A stretch of 64,000 nucleotides of DNA from Okamejei kenojei (Eukaryota): NCBI GenBank assembly GCA_035221665.1, contig CM069162.1, positions 31,868,001 through 31,932,000 on the forward strand. The letters are read 5' to 3'. Each line of letters starts with the position of its first letter. The stretch's first letter is position 1. The position numbers and the translations under genes are program-made. Shown piece by piece: positions 3,645 through 63,183 of this stretch. The notes beneath the pieces were generated by a model, which worked only from the letters and a program-made list of their open reading frames with translations, did not search any database and was not told the origin of the DNA.

Positions 3645-3915
3645 CTGTGGAGGAAGGAACTGCAGATGCTGGTTTAAACCGAAGATAAACACAAAGTGCT
3701 GGAGTAACTCAGCGGGACAGGCAGCATGTCTGGAGAGAAGGAATGGGTGACGTTTCGGGTCAAGACCGTTCTTCAGACTGGTTAGGGATAAGGGAAACAA
3801 GAGATACAGATGATGATGTAGAGATGATGTAGAGAGATAATGAAAGATATGCAAAAAAAGTAACGATGATAAAGGAAACAGGTCATTGTTAGCTGTTTGT
3901 TGGGTGAGAACGAGA
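3645..3915 (-). mobile_element. Penelope-like element pLTR fragment (subfamily A) with hammerhead core
   Basis: ggaaggaactgcagatgctggtttaaaccgaag...gacgtttcgggtcaagaccgttcttcagac; same family as copies attached to a PLE GIY-YIG ORF end elsewhere in the window. Confidence 0.8.
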
Positions 3916-4160
3916 AGCGAGCTGCTTGTTACGGATATGAGCCCAACACAGGCAGGTAGAACTAGTGTAGCTGGGGCATGCTGGTTGGCATGGGCCAGTT
4001 GGGCCGAAGAGTCTTTATCCATGCTTTGTGACTTCCATATACCCAGTAATCTTGATATTGCTCCTATATTGAGTCCCATGGCAGAGCAGAGATGTGCTGA
4101 CTTCCCCAGCAGTTGCATTGGGGAGATTGTGTACACACTTAATCTCTGCCAACTATGGCC

Positions 4161-4254
4161 GACTGAAGAAGGGTTTCAGCCCGAAACGTTGCCTTTCTCC
4201 TTCGCTCCATAGATGCTGCTGCACCCGCTGAGTTTCTCCAGCACTTTGTGTACC
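4161..4254 (+). mobile_element. 94-bp Penelope pLTR insertion (subfamily B) starting at the hammerhead core, 17-bp TSD
   Basis: ctctgccaactatggcc flanks it at 4144-4160 and 4255-4271; the insert begins gactgaagaagggtttcagcccgaaacgttg. Confidence 0.85.
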
Positions 4255-4527
4255 CTCTGCCAACTATGGCCTGTCAACCCATTCAACTTACAACATTCCA
4301 CAGACTCACCACCGTCTGCTAAAAGAAAATCCTCCTCATCTCATTCCTAAAGGTACTTATTTTAATTCTAAGGCTGTGCCCTCTAGTCCTAGACTCCGCC
4401 ACTAGTGGAAACATCCTCTCCACATCCACTCTATCCAGGCCTCTCACTATTCGGTAAGTTTCCATCATATGACAGCATGGTCACTTTAACGCAGCTGTCA
4501 CTGCCATGGTCTAGATCTTGGCATGGT

Positions 4528-4590
4528 TAAGGGGGGGATGGATGGGGAAGGGGGGGTGGGGGGGAATGGGGGGGGGAGGGGAATGGGGAG
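4528..4590 (+). repeat. G-rich low-complexity tract (G-quadruplex potential)
   Basis: Many runs of 4 or more G separated by short a/t loops. Confidence 0.7.
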
Positions 4591-4944
4591 AACCCTAGAC
4601 AGGACTCCTCCAACATGTCTCTGAGCTCCTGATGAATACCTCGGCCTGTATGTCCACTCATGCGGTTCTCAAAGCACTGATTTCCCGATTGTGACTGAAC
4701 GGCTCTGGATAATGGTTAATATTCCTATTAATGTTACCCCTGCAAGCTGAAGCGTCACGTTAGAGCAACTTCAAGTGTGCAGCCTGAGGTGTACGTTGGC
4801 AGTGCGATGATGCATGCCATCACTAATATAATTGGATATAAAAATAATTTTAACACGGTGTGCATGTAACTCGAGCCATGCAGAAGTGTTTGGTGAAGGG
4901 CTTCTTTATTCACTCACTCTGGTGTATGGCAGGTGAAGTCAGAA

Positions 4945-5672
4945 GGTCATATAGCGGTCGAATCAGGCCATTTGGCCCATCAAATCATGGCTGATCTAAT
5001 CTCTCCCTCCTAACCCCATTCTCCTGCCATATAACAATTACAGCACGGAGACAGGCCCTCTCGGCCCTTCCAGTCCGTGCCGACCATTTGTTTTCCCCTA
5101 GTTCCATCTACCTGCACTCAGACCGTACCCCTCCATTCCCTTCACGTCCATATACCTATCCACTTTACTTTTAAATGTTAAAATCGATCCTGCCTCCACC
5201 ACCTCTGCTGGAAGCTCATTCCACACAGCCACCACCCTCTGAGTAAAGAAGTTCCCCCTCACGTTACCCCTAAACTTCTGTCCCTTAATTCTCATGTCAT
5301 GCCCTCTTGTTTGAATCTTCCCTACCCTTAATGGGAAAAGCTTATCCACGTCAACTCTGTCTATCCCTTTCATCATTGTAAAGACCTCAATCAAGTCCCC
5401 CCTTAACCTTCTGCGCTCCAAAGAATAAAGACCTAACTTGTTCAACCTTTCTCTGTAACATAGTTGCTGGAACCCTGGCAACATTCTAGTAAAATGCCTT
5501 CTCCTCATAACCTCTGACACACGTACTAATCAAGACTCTATCTATCTCTGCGTAAAGATATCCACTGACTTGGACTCCACAGCTGTCTATGGCAAAGAAT
5601 TCCACAGATTCACCACCCTCTGACTAAAGAGATTTCTCCTCATCTCATTCCTAAAAGAACGTCCTTTAATTC
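4945..5672 (-). mobile_element. Nested CR1-clade LINE 3' fragments (one CR1, ~5030-5495, inside another)
   Basis: ORF 5098..5520: LGLYSLERRRLRGDLIEVF...TRGH...FFTQRVVAVWNELP, the classic CR1 RT C-terminus. A second CR1 3'UTR is split around it. Confidence 0.88.
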
Positions 5673-7054
5673 TGTTTAAGAAAGAACTGCAGATGCTGGT
5701 CAATCGAAGGTAGACAGAAATGCTGGAGAGACTCAGCGGGTGAGGCGGCATCTGTGCTGAGTTTCTCCAACGTTATTCCCGTCCATCCTTTAATTCTGAG
5801 CGTGATACACGGTGCCCGTACTGTAAGAATGGTTTATTTCCCCGGGACTCTGCTGCTTTTCCCACAGAACATTCCAGACCCTTAAATCAGAACGGGAATC
5901 GTAAACCGACTAATTAACACTGCACTAACGTTAGGACGGCACGGTGGCGCAGCTGTATCTTCAAACTGAACTAAAGTAAGCCTATAGGAAGGAACTGCAG
6001 ATGCTGGTTTAAATGGAAGATAGACACAAAATGCTGGAGTAACTCAGTGGGACAGGCAGCATCTGTGGAGAGAAGGAGTGGGTCTGCAGGACATAAACCT
6101 GTAGGATCCCTGCATGGGCAGCTCATCACTCAACACCTAACGTGAGTGGGGAATTGGGCAGAGATGGTGGTGACCTTGTCAGCCACTGGCACTGCCACCC
6201 ATCACTGCTAGTTGGCTGCAGGAGCCGATGCCACAGATGGAGTATCCTTGCCCTGCTAACCCAGAACAAACCGTGACAGTTGTCCTTTGTCACGAGCAGA
6301 GAGGAGAGCCAAAAGCCGCAGATGTGTTGGGGCCTCTGATGCTCCCCGGCATCTCTTCCTTCTTCTTGTAACCACCTCATCCGTGAAATGTCACGTCGGA
6401 GCCAGTTCCAAATTCCAAGCTCACCTGGGGAGTGAAAAGTGAAAGAAACACCACTAATAAGTGCTTCATAAATATTGAAAATTCCACAACAATGCAGACG
6501 CATCTCACTGCAATAATGGTGCATTAAAATCATGAAATGTATTACAATACTGGAATTGTGTGGCAAGCATTGTAAGAGAAAAGCAATTAGCTTTCCTTCC
6601 TCCCTTTCCAGACAGTCACTCAGAAGGGAAAACAAAACACAAAACCTGGCACATTCGCTGCTCCATAGTTTATTTCAATCATTTCGCATTAAATCTGGGT
6701 CCAGAATGAGTTGGTTAAATGGGCACAGGTTCCTCTGATCACCGAGCGCTGAAGGTGCTGAGAGTCTGACTGCATCAGACGCCAGCACAAGACATCTGCT
6801 TCTGAATCTGCCCATCCCTCCCTTGGTGTGGGAGACTTGCTGAAGCAGCCGGCAGATCAGCTTTCATCTGGTGTCCTGGTTTAGCCTTCATTATTAGGAG
6901 GGCAGGTTCCCACTGAGCCCAGCCCGCCACTGGTTCACAAGGCAGCGAGCGGGAGGTGAAAGGGCAGATGCCCTAACATGGGGGCGGTGAACACTCATGC
7001 TCACTATTTGCTGCCTGAAAAACTGCAAAGGGTTAGATTCATGAGCACACGGCT

Positions 7055-7749: not shown

Positions 7750-7975
7750 GTTCAAGAAGGAACTGCAGATGCTGGAAAATCGAATGTATTCAAAAATGCT
7801 GGAGAAACTCAGCGGGTGAGGCAGCATCTGTGGAGCGAAGGAAATAGGCAATGTTTCGGGTCGAAACCCTTCTTTAGACCCAATTGAAACGTTGCCAGAA
7901 CGTTTCCCAGAAACGTTGTCTATTTCCTTCGCTCCATAGATGCTGCTGCACCCGCTGAGTTTCTCCAGCATTTTT
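7750..7975. mobile_element. Penelope pLTR (subfamily B) with inverted arms
   Basis: aaatgctggagaaactcagcgggtg...ggagcgaaggaaatagg is followed by its reverse complement ctatttccttcgctcc...cacccgctgagtttctccagcattt. Confidence 0.8.
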
Positions 7976-8589
7976 ATCTGCCCAGACTAATTTGTCTTCA
8001 CTTGACCCAGTTATAGACTCCCAACAATAGACAGGCAAGTGATGTTAGACCAATCCGTCATAGAAGTTCTCTGGACAACCACCTTTATTTACGGAACCAT
8101 TTTGGGATCTTGGCCGAGCGTAGCGGAGATTATCTGCAGCAACACACTTGTGGCAGCGAATCTAACTCAGGTCTGAAATCTCGGCTGATCATTTGCCGTG
8201 TGTCCGTATCTTCTCCCATCTCTTCTGAAGTAGAAAACCCTGCTGTATAATTTCTTAATATTGTAGACTTGACAGTATCATCCATCTTGTCAGTTTGAAA
8301 GGTCACTCTCCAGTTCCTGCAATGCCTAATCTGCACTGGCTTTTACAAGCCGATCCTGCCACTGTTCAAGACGGCTCTCTTCATCAAATTAAATTGCACG
8401 TTTTTTATAAACTCTGATCATTAGGTTGGAAAAGGTCTCCAGACATCACGCTTTGAATGTGTCCATGTAGGAAGGAACTACAGATGCTGGTTTAAACCAA
8501 AGACAGACACAAAATGCTGGAGTAACTCAGCAGGACAGGTAGCATCTCTGGAGAGAAGGGCTGGGTGACGTTTCGGGTCGAGAGCCTTA

Positions 8590-9934: not shown

Positions 9935-10131
9935 AACACAAAAGGCTGGAAGGGAGACAAAAAAGCTGGAGTAACTCAGCGGGACAGGCAGCATCTCTGG
10001 AGAGAAGGAATGGGTGACGTTCCGGGTTGGTTCGGTGCCTTCGTTCCAGAGATGCTGCCTGTCCCGCTGAGTTGCCCCAGCGTTTTGTGTCTATCTTCTG
10101 TTTAAACCAGCATCTGCAGTTCCTTCCTACT
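9935..10131. mobile_element. Penelope pLTR (subfamily A) with inverted arms
   Basis: gctggagtaactcagcgggacaggcagcatctctgga is followed by its reverse complement, ending ttccttcctac. Confidence 0.8.
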
Positions 10132-10297
10132 TATGGCCCACAGTTTCTGCTAGTGTAGGGGGGAGATTAACGGCAATTCGAAGGCTTTGGTTCCCAACTA
10201 AAACGCAGTGTTTGATGCAACAATATGTCAGGAGTCATGCCTCATCATGTTACCAACTCTTAAAATGTCATGGCATTATAGACATCCCAAGTTTTAC

Positions 10298-10706
10298 TGT
10301 GTAGGAGAAACTGCAGATGCTGGTTTAAACCAAAGATAGATGCATAAAACTGGAGTAACACAGCAGGGTCAGACAACCTAGCCTAATGAATATTGATTTC
10401 TCTAACTTCAAGTAATCCTTGTATCTCCTCTCTCTCCATCCCACCCCCACCCTAGTCATTGTACTAGTTTCACTGTCGTCCTGACGAGTCTGTAACTAAT
10501 TTTCACCTAGGCCTGGTTCCTTTGCTATCGTTACTTTTTTGCATATCTTTCATTCACTTGTTCTATACCTCTCTGCATCACCGTCTATATCTCTCGTCTC
10601 CCTTGCCCCTGACTCTCGGTCTGAAGAAGGGTCTCGACCCGAAAGGTCACCCATTCCTTTTCTCCAGAGATGCTGCCTGTCCCGTTGAGTTACTCCAGCT
10701 TTTTAT
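10298..10706 (+). mobile_element. Penelope 3' end: ORF terminus, pLTR with hammerhead core, and inverted arm upstream
   Basis: caacctagcctaatgaatattgatttctctaacttcaagtaa = QPSLMNIDFSNFK* (PLE GIY-YIG C-terminus); ctgaagaagggtctcgacccgaaaggtc at 10621-10648. Confidence 0.82.
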
Positions 10707-23125: not shown

Positions 23126-23888
23126 TTGGGCAGTGAGAAGATTGGACATTTTTTGGACATTCTTGGACTGATACAACATACATCATTGCTCCTAAAAATA
23201 AATCCAATTTATAACATAAACCGGGCAAGAGCACTTCTTAAGGACAAAGTGTTTTTTTCAGCCAGCATAGCCCAGACCATGGGATGAAAGGTTGGAATGA
23301 AGAGTGTGGCTACAGGCTTGAGATACAGCTGCAGGCACCCTGGTGTTAACGGTCTTAAAACACAATACATCTTCAACCCTCTTTTTTCTTTTAACTTTTA
23401 GGTAATAAATATACAATACATAAACCGTGCGAAACATTCATCCAACATTTCCGGAGGCTCTACAAGTTATTCAATACAGTCTACAAACATTGCTCAAATT
23501 TCGCAAATTTGTCCCCCACCCTCATCCAGGGAGAACCCTTTTTTTTAAATTTCAAAATAGACTAAATTCAGGTACTAAATATATACAATAAATATACAAT
23601 GAAAACCCTCTATTCAGACCCACAACTGTGTCGCTGCTCTCCAAGGATCAGCGCTCATTATTAATTGATACTTTGACGGAGTTCTATTGTTCAGATCCAG
23701 GAGCTAATTTGTCATTAATGGAAATTTGAAATGACAAAATAAGAGCACTTAGCAATAATTGGATTAATTAGCTTAACAAACCAGAAATTAGGTCCTTGAT
23801 CCCATATAAGGGTTTCATCTGATAATGCAATAATGTTCCAGGGTGTAAATGTGGTGATGAGCGGTGAGCATGAATAGCAGTCACACAG

Positions 23889-24078
23889 AGGTAGACAAAA
23901 ATGCTGGAGAAACTCAGCGGGCGAGGCAGCATCTATGGAGCGCAGGAAATAGGTGACGTTTCGGGCCGAGACCCTTCGCCTATTCCTTCGCTCCATAGAT
24001 GCTGCCTCACTCGCTGAGTATCCCCGGCATTTTTGTCTACCTTCGATTTTTCCAGCATCTGCAGTTCTTTCTTAAACG
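23889..24078. mobile_element. Penelope pLTR (B) with inverted arms
   Basis: aggtagacaaaaatgctggag...gcatttttgtctaccttcgatttttccagcatctgcagttctttcttaaac. Confidence 0.82.
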
Positions 24079-24449
24079 CAGGGTCAGGCATTTTAGTCAC
24101 ATTTGATGGTGGAGACGTGAGACGTTTGTCCGTGTGGATCAGTGGGAGAATGATGAATATACTTTCCGAAATTCATACAACTTGGGCAGTGATTGGAAAT
24201 TACTCATTAATAAGCAGAGCTGAAGTATAAATGCTAACCTTCTGCTTCGAATACTGATGATTGTTTTGGTTCTAAGTTCTATCAAAGAGGTAGTTAGTAG
24301 TTCAGCACTGTGTTGGAGGGAACTGCAGATGCAGGTTTAAACTGAAGATACACACAACATGCTGGAGTAACTCAGTGGGACAAGCAGTCTCTCAGGAGAG
24401 AAGGAATGGCTGACGTTTCTGGTCGAGACCCTTCCTCAGAATGGATAGT

Positions 24450-24690: not shown

Positions 24691-24952
24691 CTATTTCGGT
24701 TGAGTAGTTTACACCCCAGCGGTATGAACATTGACTTCTCCAATTTCAGGTAGTCCCTGCTTTCTCCTTCTTTTCCCTCCCCTTCCCAGCTCTCCCACAA
24801 CCCACTGTCTCCTCCTCTTCCTTTCTTCTTCCCACCCCCCCCCCCACCCTCATATCAGTCTGAAGAAGGGTCTCGACCCAGAACGTCGCCTATTTCCTTC
24901 GCTCCATAGGTGCTGCCTCACCCGCTGAGATTCTCCAGCATTACTGTCTACC
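24691..24952 (+). mobile_element. Penelope 3' end (B): GIY-YIG ORF terminus plus pLTR
   Basis: 24691-24753 translates LFRLSSLHPSGMNIDFSNFR*; hammerhead-like ctgaagaagggtctcgacccagaacgtc at ~24860. Confidence 0.85.
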
Positions 24953-25057
24953 TCTGTTCCTTCCACGCACTTAGAAATCATCCCATGTTCATCCCGGTCA
25001 AAACTCCCAGACCTCGTTTTGGTCCATGTCGAGTTTATTGTCACATGCACAGGCACT

Positions 25058-26666: not shown

Positions 26667-27547
26667 AGATGGTGCCGACCGAGCTCAGAGCACAAGAGAA
26701 GGAGTTGGTCTTTGTCATTGGGCCCAGCTGGGAGGAGAATGGGCTAGAGTGACACCATGTTGAGTGGATGAATACAAGGAAATAGAAGGAAAGCAGAGAA
26801 ATTGGGCAAACTTGGAGATGGATGGGAAGAACGGAAGAAAGAAAATGGGTAGGGACGGCAAATACAATAGATGTGGAAGAAGACGGGACAAACAGGCTAG
26901 GTTGTCCATTGGACTGAGAGAGCATTTATAAGTTCAAAAGTGATCGTTGCAGAATTAGGCCATTCGGCCCATCAAGTCTACTCCGCCATTCAATTATGGC
27001 TAATCTATCTCTCCATCCTAACCCCATTCTCCTGCCTTCTCCCCATAACCCCTGACACCCGTACTATCAATCTCTGCCTTAAAAATACCCACTGCCTTGA
27101 CCTCCACATCCTCAACAGTGGCTGCAGGAAGTGGGGACATAAAATGAGATGACATTTGACTTGGTTTCCCCATGCCATTATTTATACACTATCCACTCCT
27201 CTACCTTGCTAATTTAAAATGCAACTTTACACTTCAAAAAGGCAAGTTATAATTTTCTTTGCATCAGCGGTTTTTTCCCGTTACAATTTTCTTTCTTTCT
27301 GTTTCAACAATTTTAATGATGATGTAAGTAAGTGTTTGTCTGCGTTGTGATCACTGAGGTGTGATGTTTGCATTCACTTCTGTATCGTTTCCTCATGGTG
27401 CTAACATCTGCAGCCGATAATTGTTAAAAATTGCGTTATTTTAACATTTTAATAAATATTCTTCTCTAATTGCTCAAGAATGAGGATGCAATTTGATTTA
27501 AAAATGCTGGGAAATGAAAATAGAAACGGCAAAAGTATTACAAATGT

Positions 27548-27575
27548 CTGAAGAAGGGTCTCGACCCGAAACGTC
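27548..27575 (+). ncRNA. Minimal type-I hammerhead ribozyme core in a Penelope pLTR (identical cores at 36974-37001 and 56067-56094)
   Basis: CUGAAGA-A-GGGU(CUCG)ACCC-GAAAC-GUC: conserved CUGANGA and GAAA boxes, helix II, a loopless helix III and a GUC triplet, as described for PLE minimal hammerheads. Helix I looks short (2-3 bp), so activity is unproven. Confidence 0.72.
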
Positions 27576-33288: not shown

Positions 33289-33449
33289 AATCCCAACTTC
33301 TCTCCTCTCGGATCTACTTGCTATTCAAAGCTTTTTGTAAGTTATCTAGTTACAGTATATCATGCTGCTACCCATGGGCCTTTGCCACGAGGGTGCTTAA
33401 GTGTTGCGTGCAGTATAACAGAGGCTTCACTTTATGGAGTGGAAGGAGT

Positions 33450-39057: not shown

Positions 39058-39962
39058 GAGTTTGTACGTTCTCCCTGTGACCTGCGTGGGTTTTCTCCGA
39101 GATCTTCGGTTTCCTCCCACACACCAAAGACGTACAGGTTTGTAAATTGTCCCTAGTGGGTGTAGGATAGTGTTAGTGTGCGGGGATCGCTGGTCGGCGC
39201 AGACCCAGTGGGCCGAAGGGCCTGTTTCCACGCTGTATCTCTAAACTAAGACTAAACTAACCGGGGAATTGCCCAGCAGATTAGACCCTTGTGAGGCAGC
39301 CTGAATGTGATCTACTTTCTACTGAAGGTACTCGAGTTGAATCAGACTCATGGTTTACAAGTTAATTTGTGGGCCTGTTGATTATCTTCCTGCCTCACAT
39401 CAGTCTGAAGAAGGGTCCTGGCCAGACACGTCGCCCATTTCCTTCGCTCCGTAGATGCTGCCTCACCTGCTGAGTTTCTCCAGCATTTTTGTCCACCTGT
39501 GGATTATGTCGGTCATCTCGTCTGACCCAAATGCTCGCAGTCCCGAGGAGAGCTTTCCTGCCACATGGGAGCTGGCAACCTCTGCTTCAGGCGGAACCCA
39601 TTTATTTGGAGTGCAGCTTGTGGGGCTGATTATAAATGCTGCTGTTCTCTGCAGTCGGATGTCCGCACGGCCGCTGGGCTGAAAGGCATCGACCGTTTCC
39701 CCACGGGGGGCTCGCTGGGGCCAGGCTGGCGCGGCAAAGTATTCTTCAGGCAGTGCCTGGGGCAGAGTGCAAGAGGGAACTGCTGATTACGGTTTAAACA
39801 CACCACGCTGGAGTAACTCAGTGGGACAGGCAGCATCTCTGGAGAGAAGGGGAATGGGTGACGTTTCGGGTCGGGACCCTAAGAGCAGGTTTACCTCTGC
39901 CGTGCCGTGGAAGGGAGGAGGAAAGCAGAGCCGGGAGAAGGCAGGAACGGGGCACTGATTGG

Positions 39963-40819: not shown

Positions 40820-41396
40820 GATTGGGGACAATCAGCCGTGATCACAGTGAATGGCGGTGCTGGCTCGAAGGGCCGAATGGCCTCCTCCTGCACCTATTGT
40901 CTATTGAAAGATGAGGGTTCTCCCCATTGTGGCATTTGCTCTGTGTCTAGAAGCAGCCGCTGGACGCTGGAGGGATCTTGAAAACCCAAACGCAAGCAGG
41001 GAAAAGCGCTGGAGCATGAGGGGTGTAATTGGGGGGGGGGGGGGGGGGATGCAAGTGTGGACGATTAGATGGGGTTGTGTGTAGAGGGTAGAGGATGCAA
41101 GGAGAGTTGTGGATGGATGGAGAGGTGTGTAGAGGTGAGGATTTAGGTAGTGTAGCGCGCACACTGTGATGGCAGCACTCCTCATCTCAACTCTCCATCA
41201 CACTGCACACCTGCCTTTAGATTCCAGCTGCTTCCAGCGTAGTAATCCCACACAACTGTTAGCCTGCACATCTGTTGGCAGAATAAGGGGTACTGGTAGA
41301 GATGGGTGTTGGAAGGGGAGGCCCCGGCCAGCGAGCTGGGTCTAGGTTCAGCTGCCTCTCTATCCAACTGACCAGCATCATTCTGTAGCCAAAGAT

Positions 41397-41589
41397 AGAC
41401 AAAAATGCTGGAGAAACTCAGCGGGTGAAGCAGCATCTATGGAGCGAAGGAATATGCGATGTCTGAAGAAGGGACTCGACCCGAAACGTCACCTATTCCT
41501 ACGCTCCAACGATGCTGCCTCGCCCACTGAGTTTCTCCAGTATTTTTGTCTACCTTTGATTTTTTCACCATCTGCAGTTCTTTCTTAAA
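41397..41589 (+). mobile_element. Complete mini-Penelope insertion (B): inverted arm, hammerhead, pLTR and tail; 18-bp TSD
   Basis: cattctgtagccaaagat at 41379-41396 and 41590-41607; core ctgaagaagggactcgacccgaaacgtc at 41463-41490. Confidence 0.88.
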
Positions 41590-42009
41590 CATTCTGTAGC
41601 CAAAGATTGCAACACCATCCATAACACTACGTGCCATCTGCAAAGTTACCGATCATATTTCCTATGTTCAAACCCAGACGGTTAAAGTATAAAACAACCT
41701 ACAATGGTTGCACCATTAATCATTGCATGAACCACAGCTCATAGACCTCCCCCGAAACGTTGCCTATTTCCTTCGCTCCATAGATGCTGCTGCACCCGCT
41801 GAGTTTCTCCAGCACTTTTGTCTACCTTCGATTTTCCAGCATCTGCAGTTCCTTCTTAAACACATTATCCAGCAGTTTCTCCGAGCGATGGGCTGACACG
41901 CCAGCTTGTAATTACCTGGCTTGAATGAAGATGCCAGGAACAATGTGCCATATATTAATCACCATCCTTAATTCATCAACCACACTTTCAAAGGCCTTGC
42001 ATCTATATT

Positions 42010-43029: not shown

Positions 43030-45360
43030 CGCCACAGAAGGCAGTGGAGGCCAATTCACTGGATGTTTTCAAGAGAGAGTTAGATTTAGCTCGTAGGCCT
43101 AAAGGAATCAAGGGATATGGGGAGAAAGCAGGAACGGGGCACTGATTCCGGACGATCAGCCATGATCATATTGAATGGCGGTGCTGGCTCAAAGGGCCAA
43201 ATGGCCTACTCCTGCACCTATTTTTCTATGTTTCTATCTAATGAACACTGGTCACAAAGTCATGGAGTCATACAGTGTGGAAACAGGCCCTTTGGCCCAC
43301 CGGGTCCGTGCCGACCAGCGATCCCCGCACTTTAACACTAATCTACACACACTAGGGATAATTTTACATTTTTATACCAAGTAAATTAACCTAAAAACCT
43401 GTGCATTTTTGGAGTGCAGGAGAAACCAAAGATCTCAGAGAAAACCCATGCGGTCACAGGGAGAACGTGCAAACTCCATACTGACAGCACCCGTAGTTGG
43501 GATCAATCCCGGGTCGAGTTTGGCAAGTTGGGCCAAAGGGCCTGTTTCCGCGCGGTGTCTCTAAGCCAAACTAAGTAATATGTATCACGGGTGAAGGAGA
43601 AGCAGTGGATGAAATAAATGCCGATTTCCAGCAGTCATTTGATAAGATGCTTCATCATTGGTTTTGTGGAAGCTAAATGTTCCTGGTCGAGATTTGAAGA
43701 CCAGCTGGTTAACGTGGAGAGGATTTATTCTCGTTGTCACCGGGATCAACACTTCACAAAGAATATACAGTTTATTTTTGTTAAATATTTTTATTAGATG
43801 TAAGTACATGTTAATAGAATATACTTCTCACATACATTCGTAATTTTATTAATATTAACAATTATGTCTTATATATTTCATACTTTTTTTTGCAAGTAAG
43901 AAAAGATAGAGAAAAATAAAGAGAATATATATGCAGTTTAGTGTACTTTAGAGATACAGCATGAAAAACAGGCCCTTCGGCCCACTGAGTCCGTGCCGAC
44001 CAGCGATCCCCGCACACTAACACTATCCCACACACACTGGCGACAATTTACAATTTTACCAAAGCCAATTAACCTACAAACCCGCACGTCTTTGGAGTGT
44101 GGGAGGAAACCGGAGATCTCAGAGAAAACCCACGCAGGTCACGGGGAGAACGTAAAACTCCGTACAGACAGCGCCCGTAGTTGGGATCGATCCCGGGTCT
44201 CTGGCGCTGTGAGCAGCAGCTCTACCCGCTGCCCCCCCCCGTGCCGCCAGATAAAGACAGGGAGCACATGGTAGCTTGTTTTACTGATGACTCAACAATA
44301 CGTGGGCAGGGAAGGTGTGAAGAGTACATCAGGATGTTACAGAAGAAGGTTGTTTGGCAGATGGAGGAAAATGTCAGAAACAATGAAATGATCCATTTTA
44401 GAAGGTATACTAAAAGGAGATGCATGTAAATGAGAGGTTGCAGATACTCTGTATTGTCATATGTCAAGGGCTAGTAACCAGGAAACCTACAGAATGGCCT
44501 GACCCACTGAGTTTAGTTTAGAGATACAGCACAGAAACAGGCCCTTTGTCCCACCGAGTCCGCACCAACCAGCGATCCCCGCACACTAACACTATCCTAC
44601 ACACACTGGGGACAATTTACAATTTGAACAAGCCAATTACCTACAAACCTGCACGTCTTTGGAATGTGGGAGGGAACCGGAGATCCCGGAGAAAACCCAC
44701 GTGGGTCATGGGGAGAACGTACATTCTCCATGCAGGAGTCTCTGGTGCGGTGAGGCAGCAGCTCCACCCGCTGCGCCACCGTGCCACCCTTATTTCTTAC
44801 TCCAGCGTTCTGTGTCTATGTTTGGTGTAAACCAGCATCTGCAGTTCCCTCCTGCACATCTTGTTGGTCTCTCATTGGGTGAGATGCAACGTGGTTCAGC
44901 TAATGGTGACATTCCAGAGTGCCTGAAGGATGCTCAGTAAAACCAAGAATCACTTTGCATTGCAATGCGATACACATGCCTGATATATTAATGTGCCATT
45001 GCAAGCTGAACAGATAGTAAATACTCACTGGGTAAAACAGAAAGGTAGCGAGATATAGCAGGGAAACAGGCCCTTTGGCCCATCCAGTCCACACTGACCA
45101 CCAATGACCCATTCACACTAATCCGACATTAATCTAATCCAATTTTCTTCCTCCATATTATTATGGTTTCCACCCAGGATCGACCCCTCACCCACACAGC
45201 AGCCAATTAGCCCACAAACCCGCACGTCTCTGGGATGTGGGACGGAACCAGAGCATCTAGAGAACAGGCGAACTCCACACGGACAGCACGCAATGTCAGA
45301 ATTGAGTCTGTCTCTCTGGCACTGTGAGACAGCGGCATTACCAGCTGCACCACTGCTGGC
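43030..45360. mobile_element. Cluster: CR1 3' end (43030-43240, +) and minus-strand HE1 SINEs (~43270-43515, 43935-44248, 44510-44789, 45050-45360)
   Basis: Repeated SINE consensus blocks acaggcccttcggcccac...gggaggaaaccggag...gctgtgaggcagc. Confidence 0.82.
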
Positions 45361-46125
45361 CACAAAGAACCACAGACTTATAATAATTTGCCAAGATGAG
45401 CAAGAAATTATTGAACAGACACATCGTCACTAGCTGACTACCCGTGAGGCTGACGCTGCCTTGGTCACATACATTTGCATTGCTGAGAACAGTCTCATCA
45501 GCAATCTGGAACATGGTGCTTTAATGGGTATACTTAGAGGTAACCCTTCCAATTAGTGTTGTATGAAGCTATCCAGACCAGGGAGGTCCAGGCCTGACTT
45601 GTATTCAATCGGTGACTTCAAGCCATGCTTGATTAGTGCGGGTGTCGAGGGTTATGGCGAGAAGGCAGCAGAATGGGGTTAGGAGGGAGCGATATATCAG
45701 CCATGATTGAATGGTGGAGTAGATGATGGGCCGAATGGCCTATTTCTACTCTTTTCACTTATGAACTGATGAAGTAAACCGATCTCAATCCCATGTTCTG
45801 GCGGGAGTGGCAAATACAAGATACAACACCAACAACAAACGGTCACAACACTGCCTTCCAAAGACAGACACAGAAAGCTGGAGTAACTCAGCGGGACGGC
45901 AGCATCTCGGCTAATGTCTTCCCGCTGGCTGGTTAGCACGCAACAAAAGCTTTTCACTGTACCTCGGTACATGTGACGATAAACTAAACTGAACTCAAAA
46001 TTCACTCATAAATGCCTCTTCCAGGAACAAGAGGGGAGTTTACCAGCTCACGTCACAGGTTAGATCAGAGAGCTGAACGACATCTCCCCTCACACCTCCG
46101 CAGAGGTTGATTGCAGAGGGATAAA

Positions 46126-47490: not shown

Positions 47491-48090
47491 ACTCCACCCA
47501 ATGCACATGCTGCAGAATGGGGTCTTCAAGCGAGCACAGTGTAATTTTCTTTAAACCTATTTGATCTTGCAGAAAGTATATCATCTTTACTTTAATGACT
47601 TTCCTGTTGCTGCGATATCCCTGCTTAGTGGCGTGCTCTGGCTATGTTGTAGCCGACACTACAAATTCATGAAGATAATTAGTTTTAGTGCGATGTTTGT
47701 TTTTACTTCTGCTGCATGATATTAAAGGTTCAGTGTAAAGTAATAAAAGCAGAAGGCGCTGCAACAGCTGGGCAAGTCAAAGACTCTCTTTGCAAAGAGA
47801 AACATGCTGAACAATTGTTTGCTTAAGAAGCTCTGAAGATGGGTCCCGACCCGAAACGTTGGCTGGCCATTTCTCTCCACACACACTGCCTGCTGAGTAC
47901 CTCCTGTGCTTTGTTCTATACAGTCGAATAAGCAGTTCCCTGCCTGGTGTTTACAGCAGGTTGCTTTGTGTTTTCTGGCAGCCGCAGTATGTTGATCGTG
48001 GTTGATTGGAGCGGTACATCAGCTCTGTTCCACCCTGCTGTGGGCCACTCGGCCCTTCATAAGGTCATAAGTGATAGAAGAATTAGGCCA

Positions 48091-50088: not shown

Positions 50089-51147
50089 CTCATGGTCACC
50101 CACTGGTCCCACACAGTATGAGTAGTAAATCTACACGTGCAAAGCAGCACATCTGTTTCTATCTTATGTAACATCTGCCTTGGGCACGGGCCTGCTGGCG
50201 TAGGCCGGGGAGTGTCTGTACATATTATTTCCTTCGCCACTCCCCAACGTCCTCCCTGCCCCAATTCCCATCATGAGTTTCTCAAGAACAGTGCAACACA
50301 TATCAGCGACCTCCTGGATTCCCTCAGTCATGCCCAGACCGCCAGCTACTCTCCAGGTGATCCCAACAATAAGTGCGTGCCCAGCAGAGCAGAGCTGTAA
50401 CCGCATCAGGTGCAGGTAAACGAGCAGCTTTTTCTCTGACCACTGTGCACTTGGACACAAAGGCACGGACAGACAATGCACCAGGAGTGTAAGATCTGTA
50501 GGCTTTTACCAGCCGCGTGCTGCACCTCAGGGGCATTTCAGTCTTCTCTCCGCGCTGCTAGAGGCTGCTTGGTGACTACAATGCGGCGAGCATTTAGCAG
50601 GAAATATGTCTTTTCATGCTTGTTGCAGCAGCTCTGTGGAGCACTTCTCATCAGCGAGTGTCTGCCTTGCGATGGAAACCTGCTCTTTCAGGATATACAA
50701 CGCACACCCATCTTCCCTTCCCACCGGAACTGCAGATGCTGGTTTAAACCGAAGATAGTCACAAAATGCTGGAGTAACTCAGCGGGACAGGCAGCATCGC
50801 TCAACTCTTTTCTCGACCTGAAACGTCACCCATTCCTTCTCTCCAGAGATGATGTCTGACCCGCTGAGTGTCTATCTTCCTTTCCCATTGAGGTGCCTTT
50901 ACAGCAATTATTGTTGCAGAGGCCCCTGATGCATATCTGGCAGTGGGCTAGAGACACGTGATTACGAATTGTCACAGCCGTAGGCAACATGAAGTGGTGA
51001 CAAATGTTTGTGACGGATTGAAAGGAAAAGGGAGTTCTTGCAGTTTTATTGGGAAGAAAAATAGAATGGATATCAGCTAAAACCACGAGGGAAACTGGGA
51101 AACAATTCACAGGTGGGGCTTCCAGTAGATACGGATAAACGGTGTGA

Positions 51148-51643
51148 GGGCAGCACAGTCGTGCAGCTGGTGGAGTTGCTGCCTCACAGCACCAGAGACT
51201 AAGGTTCGATCCTGACTACCGGTGCTAACTGTACGGAGTTTGTACGTCCTCCCTGTGACCGCGTGGGCTTTCTCCGGGGACTCTGGTTTCCTCCCGCACT
51301 CCAGAGACGTGCAGGTTTGTCAGTTCATTGGCCCTCTGCAAATTGCACCCAGCCTATCGGATGCGATAGTAGGGTAGCGTAGGACTGGTGTGGAGGAAGG
51401 AGCTGCAGATGCTGGAGAATCGAGGGGACACTGGGGGTTGTGAATGCCTGTCCGGCGGCTGTAACTGTAGCGTAGGACTGGTGTGGAGGAAGGAACTGCA
51501 GATGCTGGTTTCCACCGAAGATAGACACCAAATGCTGGAGTAACTCTGCTAGTGTTGGTGATCGATGGTCGGCGTGACCTCGTTGGGCCAAAGGGCCTGT
51601 TTCCACGCTGTATCAACAAGCTAGACTAAACTAAACGTAACTA
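51148..51643 (+). mobile_element. HE1 SINE interrupted by two Penelope termini
   Basis: SINE head at 51148, B box ggttcgatcc, tail at ~51550-51640; Penelope ends at ~51390 and ~51483. Confidence 0.78.
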
Positions 51644-52691: not shown

Positions 52692-53139
52692 CTTTCTCTC
52701 CACAAATACATCGGCTGTTACATCTCCTGATGCAGATTGTTTGCCAAATGTCTCCGGATATTTTACGACTTTAAAAGCTGGCGTATAAAACCAAATTGTT
52801 GTCTGTTTTCTTTTTCAAAGTGATTAGTCATTGAAAACTCCACAGATAAATTGATTCAGAATGCACAATTAAAATTGGTGTAATAAATCCAGGGTTTGTT
52901 CTAAATCTAATCCTCATTGCAACATGCCAGTCATGTTGGTTCACAAGTTATAGGAGTACATTCAGCCCATCGAGTGTACTCCACATAGAGTCTGGGCCAG
53001 TAGGTTAACACAGTCCATGTTGACCTCAAATGCCCTGCCTGCAATGGCCTCAAATGCCCCACACCTCCTCTCCCCCCTCCCCCCCCCCCTCACACATAGG
53101 GCCGCAGGGCAGGGCAAGGTGTGGAAACACAAAGCATGG

Positions 53140-53455
53140 ACAGGCAGACCAAGTGTAGGCTCGGCGATCGTTTCATCAACACCTGCGCTCAGTCTGCCAA
53201 GGCCTACTGGATCTCCTGGTTGCTAACCATTCCAACTCCCCCTCCCATTCCCACACTGACCTTTCTGTCCTGGGCCTCGGAGGAGCGTGAGGCCACACAA
53301 ACTGGAGCAACGGCACCTCATGTTCCGCTTGGGCAGCTCACACCGCAGCGGAATGACCACTGGACCCCACTCCCCTTTTCTTCCCATCTGTCCTGCACCT
53401 CTCCTTGTCTTACACCATTCACCTGTCTGACCCGCTGAGTTACTCCAGCACTTTA
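53140..53455 (+). pseudogene. Penelope GIY-YIG endonuclease C-terminal remnant plus pLTR fragment
   Basis: With frameshifts reads QTKCRLGDRF-HLRSVCQGLLDLLVANHSNSPSHSHTDLSVLGL...KLEQRHLMFRLG, like the PLE endonuclease pattern G.T.R.L..R..EH...VA.HF...H; followed by cccgctgagttactccagcac. Confidence 0.8.
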
Positions 53456-53622
53456 TCTCGATCCTCAGTACCACAGATATGTAAACACAGTACTCAATAA
53501 TATAATGATTAGGCAGGAGATTAGAGAGAGTGAGGCAAGATAGAGAGAGGAGGGAGAGAAGGTTGGAGTGGTGGTATGGGAAAGAGAGAGGGGTTTTGAG
53601 AAAGAGTAAGAATGAGGGTGGT

Positions 53623-55695: not shown

Positions 55696-56062
55696 CCTCC
55701 GTGCAGCCGAATGCTCTTCTGCTCAAATCACGCAAAGTACCGATCGCCAGTGCCTCTCCTGCTCATTCACTTTCTCTCAAAGGTTCATTATTCTCACGCA
55801 CGCACTGCACGGTGAAACTCTTACACCCGTGGCCGCATTGTTGTGCCAAGGTCAAAAGAAAAAGTCTAAAGTCCAAAGTCAGGTCCACACGCTGATGATC
55901 TAATGATCCGTCTCCTCCAGCCAGCTCTCTGACGTTACTTCCAGCCACACGCTCCCACCCGCCCTCACTGATTCACGCTGCACTGACAGAACATCAACAA
56001 ATGTAGAAGCTCTGTTTGGGAGCAGACAGCTGACTGCTTCCTTTACCCTCGCCACCCTACTT

Positions 56063-56197
56063 GAGTCTGAAGAAGGGTCTCGACCCGAAACGTCACCCAT
56101 TCCTTCTCTCCAGAGATGCTGTCTAACCCGCTGAGTTACTCCAGCACTTTGTGTCCATCTTCGGTTTAAACCGGCACCTGCAGTTCCTTCCTACACA
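56063..56197 (+). mobile_element. Penelope pLTR (A) from hammerhead core to tail
   Basis: ctgaagaagggtctcgacccgaaacgtc (56067-56094)...ttccttcctacac. Confidence 0.85.
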
Positions 56198-56221
56198 GAT
56201 TGTTTAGTTTAGTTCAGTTTA

Positions 56222-59095: not shown

Positions 59096-59984
59096 TTCAG
59101 GACTAGGTCAGATCTCAGACATGTTCCGCCAATCAATTGGATCATGTTTGATCTCCCCTCAGCTCCTGACACTCAGCTTTGCTCCGCAGTCTTCGAGATT
59201 ACTCCATCTCAATCCTGAAACCTTCTGTCCATCCAGCGTCTCCATTTGGGGGAAGCAATTGCCAATTTAGTTTTTGTGAAAGTTAGGTAATCTTCCACTT
59301 TCCCCAACAAGGGAAGTAAGTCAGTCCTCTGTTGATTGTTAAAGAGTCGACTAAAAAGTGCAGGCAGATAAACAATCTGTTTGCTTCCTCTCTGTACCAC
59401 CTCTGACCGTTTGAATTCTGATCATAGGATTAATAGGTGAATTTATATTCCATAAAAGTCATAAATCAGGTTGGGTCTCAGATGACAAGTGATGTATATG
59501 CAGTCCCAGCCCTCTCCAAGTCCATTGCCCCAGACTAGTTTGTGTGTCAAGTGGTATTAAATTGCAATCTGACACCCATTGAAAGGTTAAATGTTTCCTT
59601 GATGATGTCTTGGTGGAACAGCGCAGTGCAATGGCTGTCAACTTGCAGAAACAACCTTATTCCATTTGTCCGGGATTGCTTCAGCTTTTTGTTCACCGGT
59701 TTGTTCATTTGGTCCTAGTCCAGACAGGCTGCGCCACTAATTGGATTGCAACCTTCTGCCATTTGTTTTACTTTCTTTCCCCTTGCGCTCATCACGGGTG
59801 AGTGATGAAGGTAGTGAAGAATAAAGTGCTGGAGGAGACCGCTGCGATGTGGTGTACCGTACCGAGCGAGCTAGCTAACCCCAGCCAGTTAAGATGCTGC
59901 GCTCAGCAGGGGAGAAAGGAAAACACTTTCCACGTGTCCTGGTCATCGTCAGGATTCCGTGCCACAAAAGCAACTCCATGCAAC

Positions 59985-60945
59985 CCAAGATAAACACAAA
60001 AAGATGGAGTATCTCAGCGGGTCAGGCAGCATCTCTGGAGAGAAGGAGTAGGTGCTGTTTCGGGTCGAGACCCTTCTTCAGACTGAGAGTCAGGGGAAAG
60101 GGAAACGAGAGATATAAACGGTGCTTTAGAGAGAAAAAGAACAAATGAATGAAAGATATGCAAAACAGTAACGGTGATGAAGGGGACAGGCCATTGTTAG
60201 CTGTGGGCCAGGAGAAAACGAGTTATAGACAACGTGACAACACGATAACTTTGAAACTAGTTTCCATGGAGCCCGTGCAGGTATCATCGGTCCTGGTAGT
60301 TAAGATCAAAATGGTTGATTCTTCATGGGATTCAGTGGAGATGAATGTGTAAAATTCATTCTCCTTCTTTAGACTTTATTTTAGTCTTTAGAGATACAGT
60401 GTGGAAACAAGCCCTTCGGCCGACCAACGATCACCCATACACTAGCACAATCCAACTCACCAGGGCCAGTAGACAATAGACAATAGGTGCAGGGGGAGGC
60501 CATTTGGCCCTTCAAGTCAGCACCGCCATTCACTGTGATCATGGCTGATCATCCACAATCAGTTCCCCGTTGCTGCCTTCTCCCCATATCCCCTGACTCC
60601 GCTATCTTTTAGAGCCCTATCTATCTCTCTCTTGAAAGTATGCAGTGCACACGCGTCTACTGGCCTCTGAGGCAGAGAATTCCACAAACTGACAACTCTC
60701 TGTTTCCTCGTCTCCGTTCTAAATGGCTTACTCCTTATTCTTAAAATTTACAATTTTTTACCAAAGCCAATTAACCTACAAACCTGTACGACTTTGGAGT
60801 GTGGGAGGAAACTGGGGCACCCGGAGAAAACCCACGCGGTCACGGGGAGAACGTACAAACTCCATACAGACAGCGCCCGTAGTCGGGATCGAACCCGGGT
60901 CTCTGGCGCTGTGAGGCAGCAACTCCACCACTGCACCACCGTGCC
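59985..60945 (-). mobile_element. Penelope pLTR (59985-60260) and an HE1 SINE (60380-60945) with a CR1 3' end inserted (60469-60745)
   Basis: Family consensus blocks; tagacaatagacaataggtgcagg CR1 tail. Confidence 0.78.
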
Positions 60946-61244
60946 AGCGTTTCCGATGAAGGAGTAAAGCAAGGTTTGACTGACTGTTCAGGAGCACTCT
61001 CCTGGAACCCACAACGTCCTCTCACGGGTAGATGGATAAATAGATACCTGCAGCTGGTAATATTCTAGGTGTGGAAATTGGTTGCCCACAGCAACTGCAA
61101 TTAAAAACTTGTAAATTGCTTGGGGATATCCCAAGGATCGGATGAAATGTAATATCAACGTATTGCCTTTGGGGCAGTAGCTAATAATAAGCGAGCCAGA
61201 GGGTATAGGTGTAAGGTGGCAGATGTAATAAGAACCTGACGTGT

Positions 61245-62730
61245 AACAAATGGTGGTGGGTGAATGGAACGAGCTGCCAGAGGAGGTAGTTGAGGCAGTT
61301 ACTATGGCAACATTTAAGAAGTACATGGATAGGGCAGGTTTAGAGGGATTTGGGCCGAAACGCGGGCAGGTGGGACTAGTGTAGCTGGGACACTTTGGCT
61401 GGTGTGGGCGAGTTGGGCCGAGGGGCCTGTCTCCACACTGTGTCACTCTGTGACTAAGTCTCTAATAAGGAAGAAAACATTCCAGACATCCCTTCCACAG
61501 ACCACCTGCACTGAATCTTGGCACCTAAATGTCAGCTGCTGAGTTACGTACGACATGGAACCAACAGAACTGCAGAAGGTGCCCTCAAGCACAACACGGT
61601 AGCAACAGCCATTGAAAGACCCGGATAGAGTAGATGTGGAGAGGATGTTTCCACTCGTGGGAGAGTCTCGGACCAGAGGCCACAGCCTCAAAACAAAAGG
61701 ACGTACCTTCAGTAAGGAGGTTTCTTTAGTCAGAGGGTGGTGAATGTGGGGTGGCTGTGGACGCCAAGTTGGCCTTCTGGATTTACTCTGCTCCTATCAT
61801 TCATGAAAGTCCTTTATGCAGCGCCCCATGGCGATCTCAAGGCAAAGCGCGTTACAGCCAGCTAATGCAAGAAACCGTAGCAGTGTTGTCAACTACCAGT
61901 GCATTTCCTCTATAAACGCTTGCTGCATATTAAACCGAGCTGGGCTCCCAGAGAAGCACTTGGCAAGGCCTTCTAGTTTGTTTGCATCAAGGATGCATCA
62001 ATGTGGCAGCAGGAATGTTTCCCCTTTCCTAATGAAACGTGAATTGAAGGCGCACTTGCCTGAACGCTGATGCTTTAAGCGAGCGTGAGCAGATTCCGGG
62101 AAGCTGGCTGTGTTTTCCAAATTGCTATGGGCGTAATATCGTGCTGATTGGATAATGCGTTTAAATTAGGAACAGATGCATCGTCTGACAGAGCCTGATT
62201 CCCAGATGGAATGTTATCATTTTACTGATTCTGTCTTTGCAGCTCGGTAAAGTGTCAGCTCATCTTCTGGGCCGCGTGGCCACTGGATCTACATACAGGG
62301 GCTGAACCTGGAGGTGCTGACTCAGCTGGGACTGGGACAGCAATGGCTCAGTACATCAGGCCGGGAATCATTTGTAATTACAATACTTTAGAGTGATACA
62401 GCGTGGAAACAGCCCCCTTCGGCCCAACATTACCCATACCAGCCAACATGTCCCAGCTACACTAGTCCCATCTGTCCATGTTTGGTCCAAATCCTTCCAA
62501 AACGGTCTGATCCATGTACCTGTATAACTGTCTCTTAAACATTAGGATGGTCCCTCAACTACCTCCTCCAGCAGCTCGTTCCATACACCCAACGCCCTCT
62601 GTGTGAAAAAGTTACCCCTCAGATTCCTATTAAATCTTTTCCCCTTCACCATAAACCTATGTCCTCTGGTCCTCGATTCACCTACTCTGGACAAGAGACT
62701 GTGCGTGTACCCGATCTATTCCTCTCCTGA
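61245..62730. mobile_element. CR1 3' fragments (61245-61455 +, 61615-61800 +, 62390-62728 -)
   Basis: tggaacgagctgccagaggaggtagttgaggcag; gaaaaagttacccctcagattcctattaaatc. Confidence 0.78.
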
Positions 62731-63183
62731 TAGTTTCCAATCGGATTGGATGTAATATAAAGGAATATTGGAGGAATTGATGTCCAATCCAGACACACTT
62801 CACCTTTCTGCTTGTTGTACAATGCAGTCTCCATCTCACGATGTGGTATTTCTAACATATTGTACCCTTCTGAAGCCTCAAGTAATCTGTAGTTGCATCT
62901 GTCGTGGCCAGATCAGGGTAAAGCAGATCATGGAGGTAAGATCTTCAGGGTCAAATATTGGGTCTGCTGGAACTGGGCTCTTGAATTATAGAAACAAAGA
63001 ACTGCAGATGCTGGTCTGAAGAAGGATCCTGACCCAAAATGTCACCCGTACCTTTGCTCCACAGATGTTGCCTGATCTACTGAGTTACTCCAGCACTCTA
63101 TGTCCATCTTTTTGAGTTATATGTCAGACTACTGGGGCCAAATTATTGGTTAAGATTTCCAATATGTGTGGAGAATAACAGTT

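What the first reader, a model, noticed from the sequence alone, without database searches (positions are those of the whole stretch)
3645..63110. About 40 Penelope-like pLTR fragments, many carrying a minimal hammerhead ribozyme
Seen: the most common short repeat contains CUGAAGA-A-GGGU(CUCG)ACCC-GAAAC-GUC, intact at 27548, 36974 and 56067 and variant at 4163, 10621, 12912, 22437, 41463 and others. Helix II variation keeps pairing: GGGU/ACCC versus GGGU/GCCC (minus strand ~23960; 4171), with loops CUCG/UUCG/UUCA. The motif lies downstream of a GIY-YIG ORF end (MNIDFSNF[KR]* at ~10390 and 24691-24753), which ties it to PLEs. Known: PLE pLTRs encode minimal type-I hammerheads with a palindromic, loopless helix III thought to act as dimers, and an extra A after A9 is tolerated in natural hammerheads. 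Inference: at one fragment per ~1.6 kb, a host pre-mRNA crossing this region on either strand would carry many ribozyme cores that could pair with each other.
Basis: partly seen in the sequence, partly recalled or inferred. Interest (0 to 1): 0.75.

Follow-up and report, generated by a model that had tools for sequence, protein, structure and literature searches.

The report
Skate Penelope stubs carrying idle hammerheads
About 39 short leftovers of a Penelope-like jumping gene sit in this stretch of skate- or ray-like DNA, many with a stripped-down self-cutting RNA motif of a kind already known from such elements; the motifs are likely idle passengers, but the sharply repeated start and end points of the copies likely record where the element's RNA begins and where copying starts.

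Summary
Confirmed: 53 repeat arms form 39 loci, one per 1.6 kb; shuffles give none. 24 arms span the hammerhead core, 10 keep core, helix II and palindrome, and helix I is only 2 bp. The layout is the known Penelope one: GIY-YIG-like ORF end upstream, head-to-head copies, optional ~38-nt tail, target duplications.

The idea that these cores cut host pre-mRNA as cross-copy dimers is not supported. Predicted dimers lie 1-55 kcal/mol above the monomer folds, opposite-strand copies would form -109 to -154 kcal/mol duplexes, and catalytic G12 is mutated in 16% of genome-wide contig depth. Transcription of the window could not be tested.

The extra is in the ends. 14 of 43 arms start within 4 nt of the core's first base, against 3 of 43 at the cut site, often after an extra G. 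All 11 classifiable inverted pairs join one short and one tailed arm. Likely reading: uncut, capped RNA starting at the ribozyme, copied from two internal start sites. The scan noted this family and these end patterns before, in other windows of this genome and in other genomes.

The parts
3632..3914 (-). long pLTR arm, subfamily A, -141 to tail end (positions relative to core C3); G10.1 mutated
4163..4251 (+). solo arm, subfamily B, starts at C3, short end, 17-nt target duplication; core intact (GUU), no helix I
5665..5756 (-). solo arm +44 to tail end, no core
5985..6083 (-). solo arm starting at +28, the first base after the predicted cut; tail end
7756..7974 (.). head-to-head pair, tailed + short; G5 mutated
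8466..8588 (-). solo arm +6 to tail end
9949..10130 (.). head-to-head pair, short + tailed, no full core
10297..10707 (.). head-to-head pair: tailed stub (-) plus long copy (+) with ORF end at 10386-10415 and core at 10621 (palindrome broken)
11659..11716 (+). solo arm +30 to short end
11785..11969 (.). head-to-head pair, short + tailed, 10-nt duplication; core at 11877 (-) passes but has no helix I and is inside a hairpin
12872..13014 (+). solo arm -40 to short end; core at 12912 with palindrome broken; reference
14538..14830 (.). head-to-head pair, short (long upstream part, intact core at 14619, -) + tailed
20953..21061 (+). solo arm starting at -2, short end; 1-nt deletion in core
22191..22576 (+). 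long pLTR copy with tail; core at 22437 damaged; reference
22957..23130 (.). head-to-head pair, tailed + short, 11-nt duplication, no core
23889..24077 (.). head-to-head pair, short + tailed; partial core with GGGU/GCCC helix II
24308..24443 (-). solo arm starting at the core, tail end; helix II damaged
24691..24953 (+). subfamily B copy: ORF end 24691-24753, ~105-nt pyrimidine-rich spacer, core at 24860 (G12/A13 changed), short end
27546..27674 (+). solo arm starting at -2, tail end; intact core at 27548, helix I 2 bp
30644..30772 (+). solo arm +3 to tail end
32948..33289 (.). head-to-head pair, short (G5 mutated) + tailed arm that lacks helix II and is split by a ~100-nt insertion at 33107-33208
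34692..34788 (+). solo arm starting at -3 after a G, short end; 1-nt deletion in helix II
34867..35080 (.). head-to-head pair, short + tailed; core at 34950 passes but is inside a hairpin
36413..36640 (.). head-to-head pair, tailed (starts at -3 after a G; core broken) + short
36972..37065 (+). solo arm starting at -2, short end, 8-nt duplication (within chance range); exact core at 36974, no helix I
37661..37713 (-). solo tail stub
39389..39506 (+). subfamily B arm -13 to short end; core at 39405 damaged
39767..39880 (-). solo arm +7 to tail end
41389..41591 (.). head-to-head pair, short + tailed, 20-nt duplication; core at 41463 passes with 3 of 4 helix II pairs, inside a hairpin
41751..41866 (+). 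solo arm +17 to tail end
44797..44858 (+). solo tail stub
45858..45908 (-). solo stub, short end
47832..47919 (+). divergent copy; intact core at 47833 with a 4-bp helix I including a G-C to C-G swap; best candidate for activity
50726..50869 (.). head-to-head pair, tailed + arm ending early at +69, 14-nt duplication
51482..51549 (-). solo tail stub
53130..53469 (+). frameshifted remnant of the endonuclease-like ORF end (about 53130-53360) followed by a pLTR stub at 53423-53469
56055..56211 (+). arm with intact core at 56067, helix I 2 bp, tail end
59982..60261 (-). long pLTR arm, short end; core at 60081 with U16.1 mutated
62995..63110 (.). arm starting at -2 (63014-63110, +, G12 mutated, short end) with a small inverted tail piece in front, seen by eye and not counted among the 12 pairs

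Best explanation
The repeats are short, decayed insertions of the ribozyme-bearing end of a Penelope-like retrotransposon, and most were likely copied from RNA that the ribozyme had not cut. Shown: two fixed 3' ends about 38 nt apart; inverted pairs with one end of each kind inside one target duplication; 5' ends piled 2-3 nt in front of the core. Inferred: the element's RNA is capped and starts at an initiator-like TCAGT at the ribozyme's first helix, which would explain the 2-bp helix I and the extra G at junctions. The enzyme, likely a dimer nicking both target strands, would start copying inside the RNA at about +93 and +130. Priming near the 5' end of the RNA would give ~97- and ~134-nt run-off copies, priming from both target strands the inverted pairs, and priming in the downstream repeat of read-through RNA the rarer long copies with the ORF end. 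The hammerhead is likely kept by selection in master elements and idle in the inserted copies.
For: 3' ends: 24 short, 26 tailed, 3 other of 53 arms; genome-wide loose ends behind 22528-22532 and 22568. Pairs: 11 of 12 are short + tailed (one after merging a split arm), the 12th is tailed + shorter; P=5e-4 for 11 of 11; 4 of 12 pairs have 10-20-nt duplications, null >=10 nt in 4 of 144. 5' ends: 14 of 43 at -4..0 (corrected P=2.6e-8), 3 of 43 at +26..+30 (P=0.26); in DNA run X3 the top four loose-end sites are -5..-2 (1136, 603, 896, 773 contigs), with AT-rich flanks at 0.32 agreement for -4..-2. Extra G: 8 of 12 at these starts vs 5 of 20 at other starts (Fisher p=0.025); G is the consensus letter before -3 in X3, X17, X19 and X1, X3; an extra G marks capped full-length L1 insertions (PMC11702581 passage). 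Decay: G12 G>A 16.3%, C11.1 C>T 11.9%, loop CpG 7.8-8.3% of depth in X3. Precedent: two internal RT starts, both strands cut, predicted dimer, uncut RNA as main template, no RNA ends at the cut site (PMC11167929).
Against: No RT domain or full-length element was obtained; the GIY-YIG call rests on a relative (P0004) whose Atlas hits score 0.86 and which has no GIY-YIG match in Pfam. The junction G is a small sample, and in inverted junctions such as 63016 it can come from the other arm. An initiator-like YYANWYY occurs 10.7 times per kb per strand (TCAKTY 1.3), so the motif alone is weak. The same TCAG also looks like a splice acceptor. In D. virilis the start site lies 46 bp before the intron, well upstream of the ribozyme. 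Lay-out data are contigs, only six loose-end rows per run were shown, some were not counted, the -5 class mixes in other subfamilies' upstream sequence, and under-samples the cut site (36 reference bases behind it). One arm (6083) starts exactly at the cut site.
Confidence: 0.6

Rival explanations
1. Same element, but the 5' pile-up marks a stall of reverse transcription at a 3' splice site (bound by splicing factors) or at the ribozyme fold, in a longer unspliced RNA.
For: 6 of 9 longer copies have CAG right before T-1 behind a pyrimidine tract, with a branch-point-like CTRAC/CTCAY at -12..-8; only 73 of 4171 YAG sites in the window have such a tract. In D. virilis the intron ends at the 5' end of helix I and helix I is 2 bp (PMC4209133). 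A GT overlaps the ORF stop in both subfamilies (10412-10413, 24750-24751).
Against: No GT..AG joint among the 15 of 183 joints shown; no shared upstream exon in loose ends of X17 and X19 (agreement 0.35-0.42; weak test). The whole pLTR is 62-80% pyrimidine. A stall does not explain the extra G.
Confidence: 0.22
2. The short copies descend from a few non-autonomous master elements of fixed length (SINE- or retrozyme-like), so the shared start is a founder effect.
For: Uniform lengths, target duplications, very high copy number (83-109 thousand contigs laid per DNA run).
Against: The same start occurs in subfamilies A, B and the divergent 47832 copy; long copies run on into the ORF end; every inverted junction differs; no head-to-tail arrays among the 53 arms; starts are not at the cut site as for ribozyme-processed RNA.
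Confidence: 0.1
3. One reading: dispersed cores in a host pre-mRNA pair with each other and cut the transcript.
For: 10 cores pass sequence criteria, 8 on one strand; the ACGU palindrome allows a nested double hammerhead; minimal hammerheads showed low activity as dimers and none as monomers (PMC4209133); protein can assist folding (PMC11167929). Copy 47833 is only 1.3 kcal/mol from its monomer folds in a short construct.
Against: Double hammerheads are 1.3-18 (short constructs) and 7.3-55 kcal/mol (with flanks) above the monomer folds in all 7 pairings tried; sense/antisense duplexes of 4 nearby copy pairs are -109 to -154 (nearest-neighbour model, no tertiary terms, no positive control). Catalytic G12 decays at CpG rate.
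Confidence: 0.06

Closest known systems
[quoted passage not shown]
   Same: CUGANGA / GAAA / UH core, extra base between 9 and 10.1, G10.1-C11.1, loopless palindromic helix III, mostly single dispersed motifs, pairs on opposite strands, thousands per genome in fish, coelacanth and Xenopus.
   Different: Helix II is 4 bp (7-8 in S. mansoni) and helix I 2 bp (4-5 in S. mansoni; 2 in the D. virilis variant). Cartilaginous fish are not named in the parts read; figures and supplements were not seen.
EN+ PLE insertion unit: pLTR, inverted 5'-truncated copy, one-sided 30-40-bp tail (PMC8557442, 12 of 19 passages; PMC3846280, 8 passages)
   Same: Head-to-head copies, tail on one side, target duplications or microhomology, heavy 5' truncation, ORF end running into the pLTR.
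   Different: Here most copies are only 50-140 nt and many share one 5' start with an extra G; I did not find that described.
Poseidon of Anolis carolinensis, PAc (PMC11167929; parts 1-2 of 4 read)
   Same: Two RT start sites bounding the tail about 100-140 nt behind the hammerhead; AT-rich targets; uncut RNA as template.
   Different: PAc has its start codon in the core; this core (CUGAAGA) has none. Clade not established here.
Non-LTR retrozymes (bioRxiv 10.64898/2026.07.22.740005; parts 1-2 of 5 read)
   Same: Non-coding, PLE-derived, type-I hammerhead; reported in the one chondrichthyan sampled.
   Different: Defined by tandem units each with a hammerhead; the copies here are solo or head-to-head.

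Membership tests
EN+ Penelope-like element | telomerase-like RT domain | not testable with these tools
   No RT part of this family in the window, no genome held, pattern scans of three collections empty. RVT_1 hits at 17930-18606 belong to another, LINE-like element.
EN+ Penelope-like element | C-terminal GIY-YIG endonuclease ending at the pLTR | tested here: inconclusive
   Remnant 53159-53287 is 79% identical over 33 aa to P0004, which has a YIG motif and a similar end; Atlas top hits for P0004 are GIY-YIG clusters at 0.86, family share 24% and 15%, a lead only; no usable Atlas hit for the remnant; no GIY-YIG in Pfam.
EN+ Penelope-like element | optional 30-40-bp tail at one end | tested here: met
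   Two 3' end classes near +93 and +130; one of each in 11 of 12 pairs.
EN+ Penelope-like element | inverted 5'-truncated copy head to head | tested here: met
   12 pairs among 39 loci.
EN+ Penelope-like element | target duplications in part of the copies | tested here: met
   10-20 nt at 6 of 41 segments against 4 of 144 random pairs; one of the six (39389) overlaps the element's end and is doubtful.
EN+ Penelope-like element | clade marker (Zn-finger-like linker of Neptune/Nematis) | not testable with these tools
   Linker not present in the window.
Minimal type-I hammerhead | core CUGANGA, GAAA, UH | tested here: met
   Consensus of both subfamilies; 10 of 24 core-spanning arms pass in full.
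Minimal type-I hammerhead | extra base after A9, G10.1-C11.1, helix II | tested here: met
   Helix II cells 93% paired, first pair GC 16, GU 2, AU 1, other 3 of 22. Covariation is weak: 9 of 500 shuffles reach the score, a level related sequences can reach without structure.
Minimal type-I hammerhead | palindromic loopless helix III | tested here: met
   A15.1-U16.1 in 21 of 22; 15.2-16.2 CG 14, UG 2, broken 6 of 22.
Minimal type-I hammerhead | helix I of 4-5 bp as in the S. mansoni type | tested here: not met
   2 bp in 10 of 19 copies folded, 0 in 3, 3-5 in 6; matches the 2-bp D. virilis variant instead.
Minimal type-I hammerhead | self-cleavage after position 17 | not testable with these tools
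   No raw RNA reads; needs an assay.
Rfam hammerhead families | covariance-model match | tested here: not met
   No match at gathering score; no hammerhead among 32 matches at E<=10.
Non-LTR retrozyme | tandem units each with a full hammerhead | tested here: not met
   No head-to-tail array among the 53 arm coordinates; a few tandem joints exist elsewhere in the genome (1-3 contigs each).

The most novel reading that the evidence does not exclude
This Penelope family starts its capped RNA at the first base pairs of its own hammerhead, so the ribozyme's cut would remove a ~31-nt capped leader, and a dimeric enzyme copies the uncut RNA from two fixed internal sites, one for each nicked target strand; the swarm of 97/134-nt copies and short-plus-tailed inverted pairs is the in vivo record of that cycle.
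Probability: 0.3. Interest if true: 0.6.

Novelty: new member of a known kind. Interest (0 to 1): 0.33.

Why it matters
The motif and its home are known. What hammerheads do in Penelope-like elements, and how the tail and inverted copies arise, are open questions (PMC8557442, PMC11167929). A family this abundant lets both be tested by counting ends in one assembly: whether templates were cut, where the RNA starts, and whether the two RT start sites are assigned one to each target strand. It also suggests why thousands of cores in a vertebrate genome need not harm host transcripts.

Tried and rejected
Rfam at two thresholds: no hammerhead; the miRNA-like hits are the inverted pairs. Host gene: Pfam on 299 of 391 stop-free, mostly non-repeat frames of 45 aa or more, plus one ORF-end frame, gave only transposon domains above cut-off; short exons would be missed, so this does not show the window is intergenic. 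No RNA holder listed; X15 and X16 were marked probably DNA, X17 and X19 are guessed RNA and only contigs. ORF-end peptide searches: nothing and one unrelated repeat protein. The peptide read across the core found three ORF calls over the same repeat, no full element. Pattern scans of metagenome (2), genome (1) and viral (1) contigs: 0 matches. Folds of six copies are no more stable than shuffles (z -1.04 to 1.19). A type-III reading was checked by eye and fails at helix I. Fold-back self-priming as the source of pairs was set aside because the arm starting at the core is tailed in 4 pairs and short in 2. Lunse et al. 2016 on PLE hammerhead dimers is not held; I know it only by title and through a review (PMC6765202, 5 passages). 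PMC6431247 (7 passages), PMC12602865 (0 hits) and PMC11371274 (2 passages) held nothing on point. Supplements of PMC4209133 and PMC11167929, not seen, may already show elasmobranch motifs or 5'-end patterns.


Full report
Numbering. Positions are given relative to C3, the first core base (0); the predicted cut is after +27.

Observation. A profile from 23 window copies finds 53 arms (31 on +, 22 on -; 5,949 bases) and none in 10 shuffled windows. They form 41 segments, or 39 loci after merging two split elements by eye. 24 arms span the core; 10 keep all invariant bases, at least 3 helix II pairs and the palindrome. Rfam has no hammerhead match. The host looks like a skate or ray: the only named relative found is a Leucoraja erinacea protein that carries a piece of the same ORF. 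The family is very abundant: 83-109 thousand contigs per DNA run were laid on single copies (not a copy number).

Link to Penelope-like elements. Two copies run back into an ORF end (10386-10415, 24691-24753). Its longest open piece is 79% identical over 33 aa to P0004, which has a YIG motif; the Atlas puts P0004 nearest GIY-YIG clusters at 0.86, a lead only, and Pfam does not confirm it. The layout is stronger evidence. 3' ends fall near +93 (24 arms) or +130 (26 arms), 3 elsewhere, and the same two ends appear among genome-wide loose ends. Twelve loci are head-to-head pairs; 11 join one short and one tailed arm, the 12th a tailed and a still shorter arm (P=5e-4 for 11 of 11). Four pairs lie inside 10-20-nt duplications, so a pair is one event. 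An inverted truncated copy and a one-sided 30-40-bp tail are described hallmarks (PMC8557442; PMC3846280), and the tail of Anolis Poseidon is the stretch between two RT start sites (PMC11167929).

The ribozyme motif. It has the features listed for minimal hammerheads (PMC4209133): extra base after A9, G10.1-C11.1, loopless palindrome. Helix II is 93% paired; covariation is weak. Helix I is 2 bp in 10 of 19 copies folded, with U-A to U-G in subfamily B and one G-C to C-G swap at 47833. The consensus lines of subfamilies A (34 arms) and B (15 arms) are identical from -5 to +27 and differ at about 15 places in the next ~100 nt (read by eye); non-CpG core sites mismatch 8 of 280 times against 269 of 3314 downstream (p=6e-4; coarse subfamilies and base composition may inflate this). 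This points to constraint in the master lineage. In the copies the CpG at C11.1/G12 decays: 8 of 33 and 3 of 33 in the window, 11.9% and 16.3% of contig depth in X3 against 7.8% and 8.3% at the loop CpG. That G12 is the catalytic base is established knowledge, recalled.

The pre-mRNA dimer idea. Only sense copies count: 8 on +, 2 on -. Three of the 10 have no helix I and three lie in hairpins of -101 to -132 kcal/mol. In 7 pairings the best fold holding a double hammerhead was 1.3-18 kcal/mol (44-nt constructs) and 7.3-55 kcal/mol (131-nt constructs) above the two monomer folds, while four nearby opposite-strand pairs gave duplexes of -109 to -154. The model has no tertiary terms and I had no positive control. 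Published minimal hammerheads cut weakly even as dimers, and the Anolis one needed protein and left no RNA ends at its site. Whether the window is transcribed is unknown.

The 5' ends. Of 43 arms starting between -45 and +75, 14 start at -4..0, 8 of them at -2 (corrected P=2.6e-8); 3 start at +26..+30 (P=0.26). Dropped before the count: six long arms, three arms whose upstream looks like another subfamily's (24855, 39389, 56055) and the second half of the split arm. In X3 the four top loose-end sites are -5..-2 (1136, 603, 896, 773 contigs); -4..-2 have AT-rich flanks at 0.32 agreement, -5 mixes in other subfamilies. X17 (another organism) has the same four sites, X19 has -5, -3 and 0. The cut site is not among the six rows shown per run in either call; under-samples it, and the smallest rows shown for X1 and X3 apart from one of 81-97 contigs have 411-431, so a smaller peak there is not excluded. 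Most copies therefore contain the whole core, so their templates were uncut there.

Why that start? TCAG before T-1 reads two ways. As a splice acceptor: 6 of 9 longer copies have CAG behind a pyrimidine tract, as do only 73 of 4171 YAG sites, and the D. virilis intron ends at helix I; but no spliced form showed. As an initiator with A-3 as first base (consensus recalled): the base in front of the start is G in 8 of 12 copies against 5 of 20 at other starts (p=0.025), and G is the consensus letter before -3 in all runs where that row is shown, as expected from a copied cap (PMC11702581). I began with the acceptor reading; earlier AI notes suggested the RNA start, and I then tested the G. The end pile-up and the short + tailed rule I had counted before reading them.

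Mechanism. Shown: ends, pairs, duplications, decay. Inferred: capped RNA from -3/-2; internal priming at +93 and +130 by a dimer that nicks both strands; run-off to the cap gives the short copies, priming from both strands the pairs, priming in the downstream repeat of read-through RNA the long copies. I put the identity at about 0.9 and the full mechanism at about 0.5.

Verdict. A real and dense, but known, kind of feature. The fixed start with an extra G and the strict pairing rule were not found in print in my searches and make the family a useful test case. Interest 0.33.

Noticed in passing
window 15000-20500 (+): Decayed L1-like LINE (RVT_1 and zf-RVT hits; the L1 label is my recall) with a DDE_3 transposase fragment at 16978-17307 on the other strand.
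   Followed up: no
window 5098-5529, 25845-26309, 29789-30298, 46210-46575: Related ORF remnants that look like 3' ends of CR1-type LINEs (label recalled).
   Followed up: no
window 47825-47870 (+): Divergent copy with a 4-bp helix I and the most favourable predicted dimer; the upstream half of the helix may be flank by chance.
   Followed up: partly
window 3645-3776 (-) and subfamily A generally: The frame starting at C3 is open through the tail in subfamily A and is in phase with a GT that overlaps the ORF stop; it is closed in subfamily B. Coding role not shown.
   Followed up: partly
P0005: A Leucoraja erinacea SAC2-like isoform ends in a peptide matching the element's endonuclease-like remnant: a likely exonized or mis-predicted piece.
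   Followed up: no
loose ends before 22477 and behind 12942: A third abundant subfamily with the same core and a different sequence after +31, in three organisms.
   Followed up: no
window 33050-33106 (+): Arm with a clean 15-nt deletion of helix II between two GAA repeats, then split by a ~100-nt insertion.
   Followed up: no
window 2000-3400 and 39900-41000: GC-rich stretches with long stop-free frames and no Pfam match; unexplained.
   Followed up: no
window 13279-13794, 54482-55341; 46600-47480; 53600-54270: Two N gaps, a short-period tandem repeat and a C/T-rich low-complexity tract.
   Followed up: no
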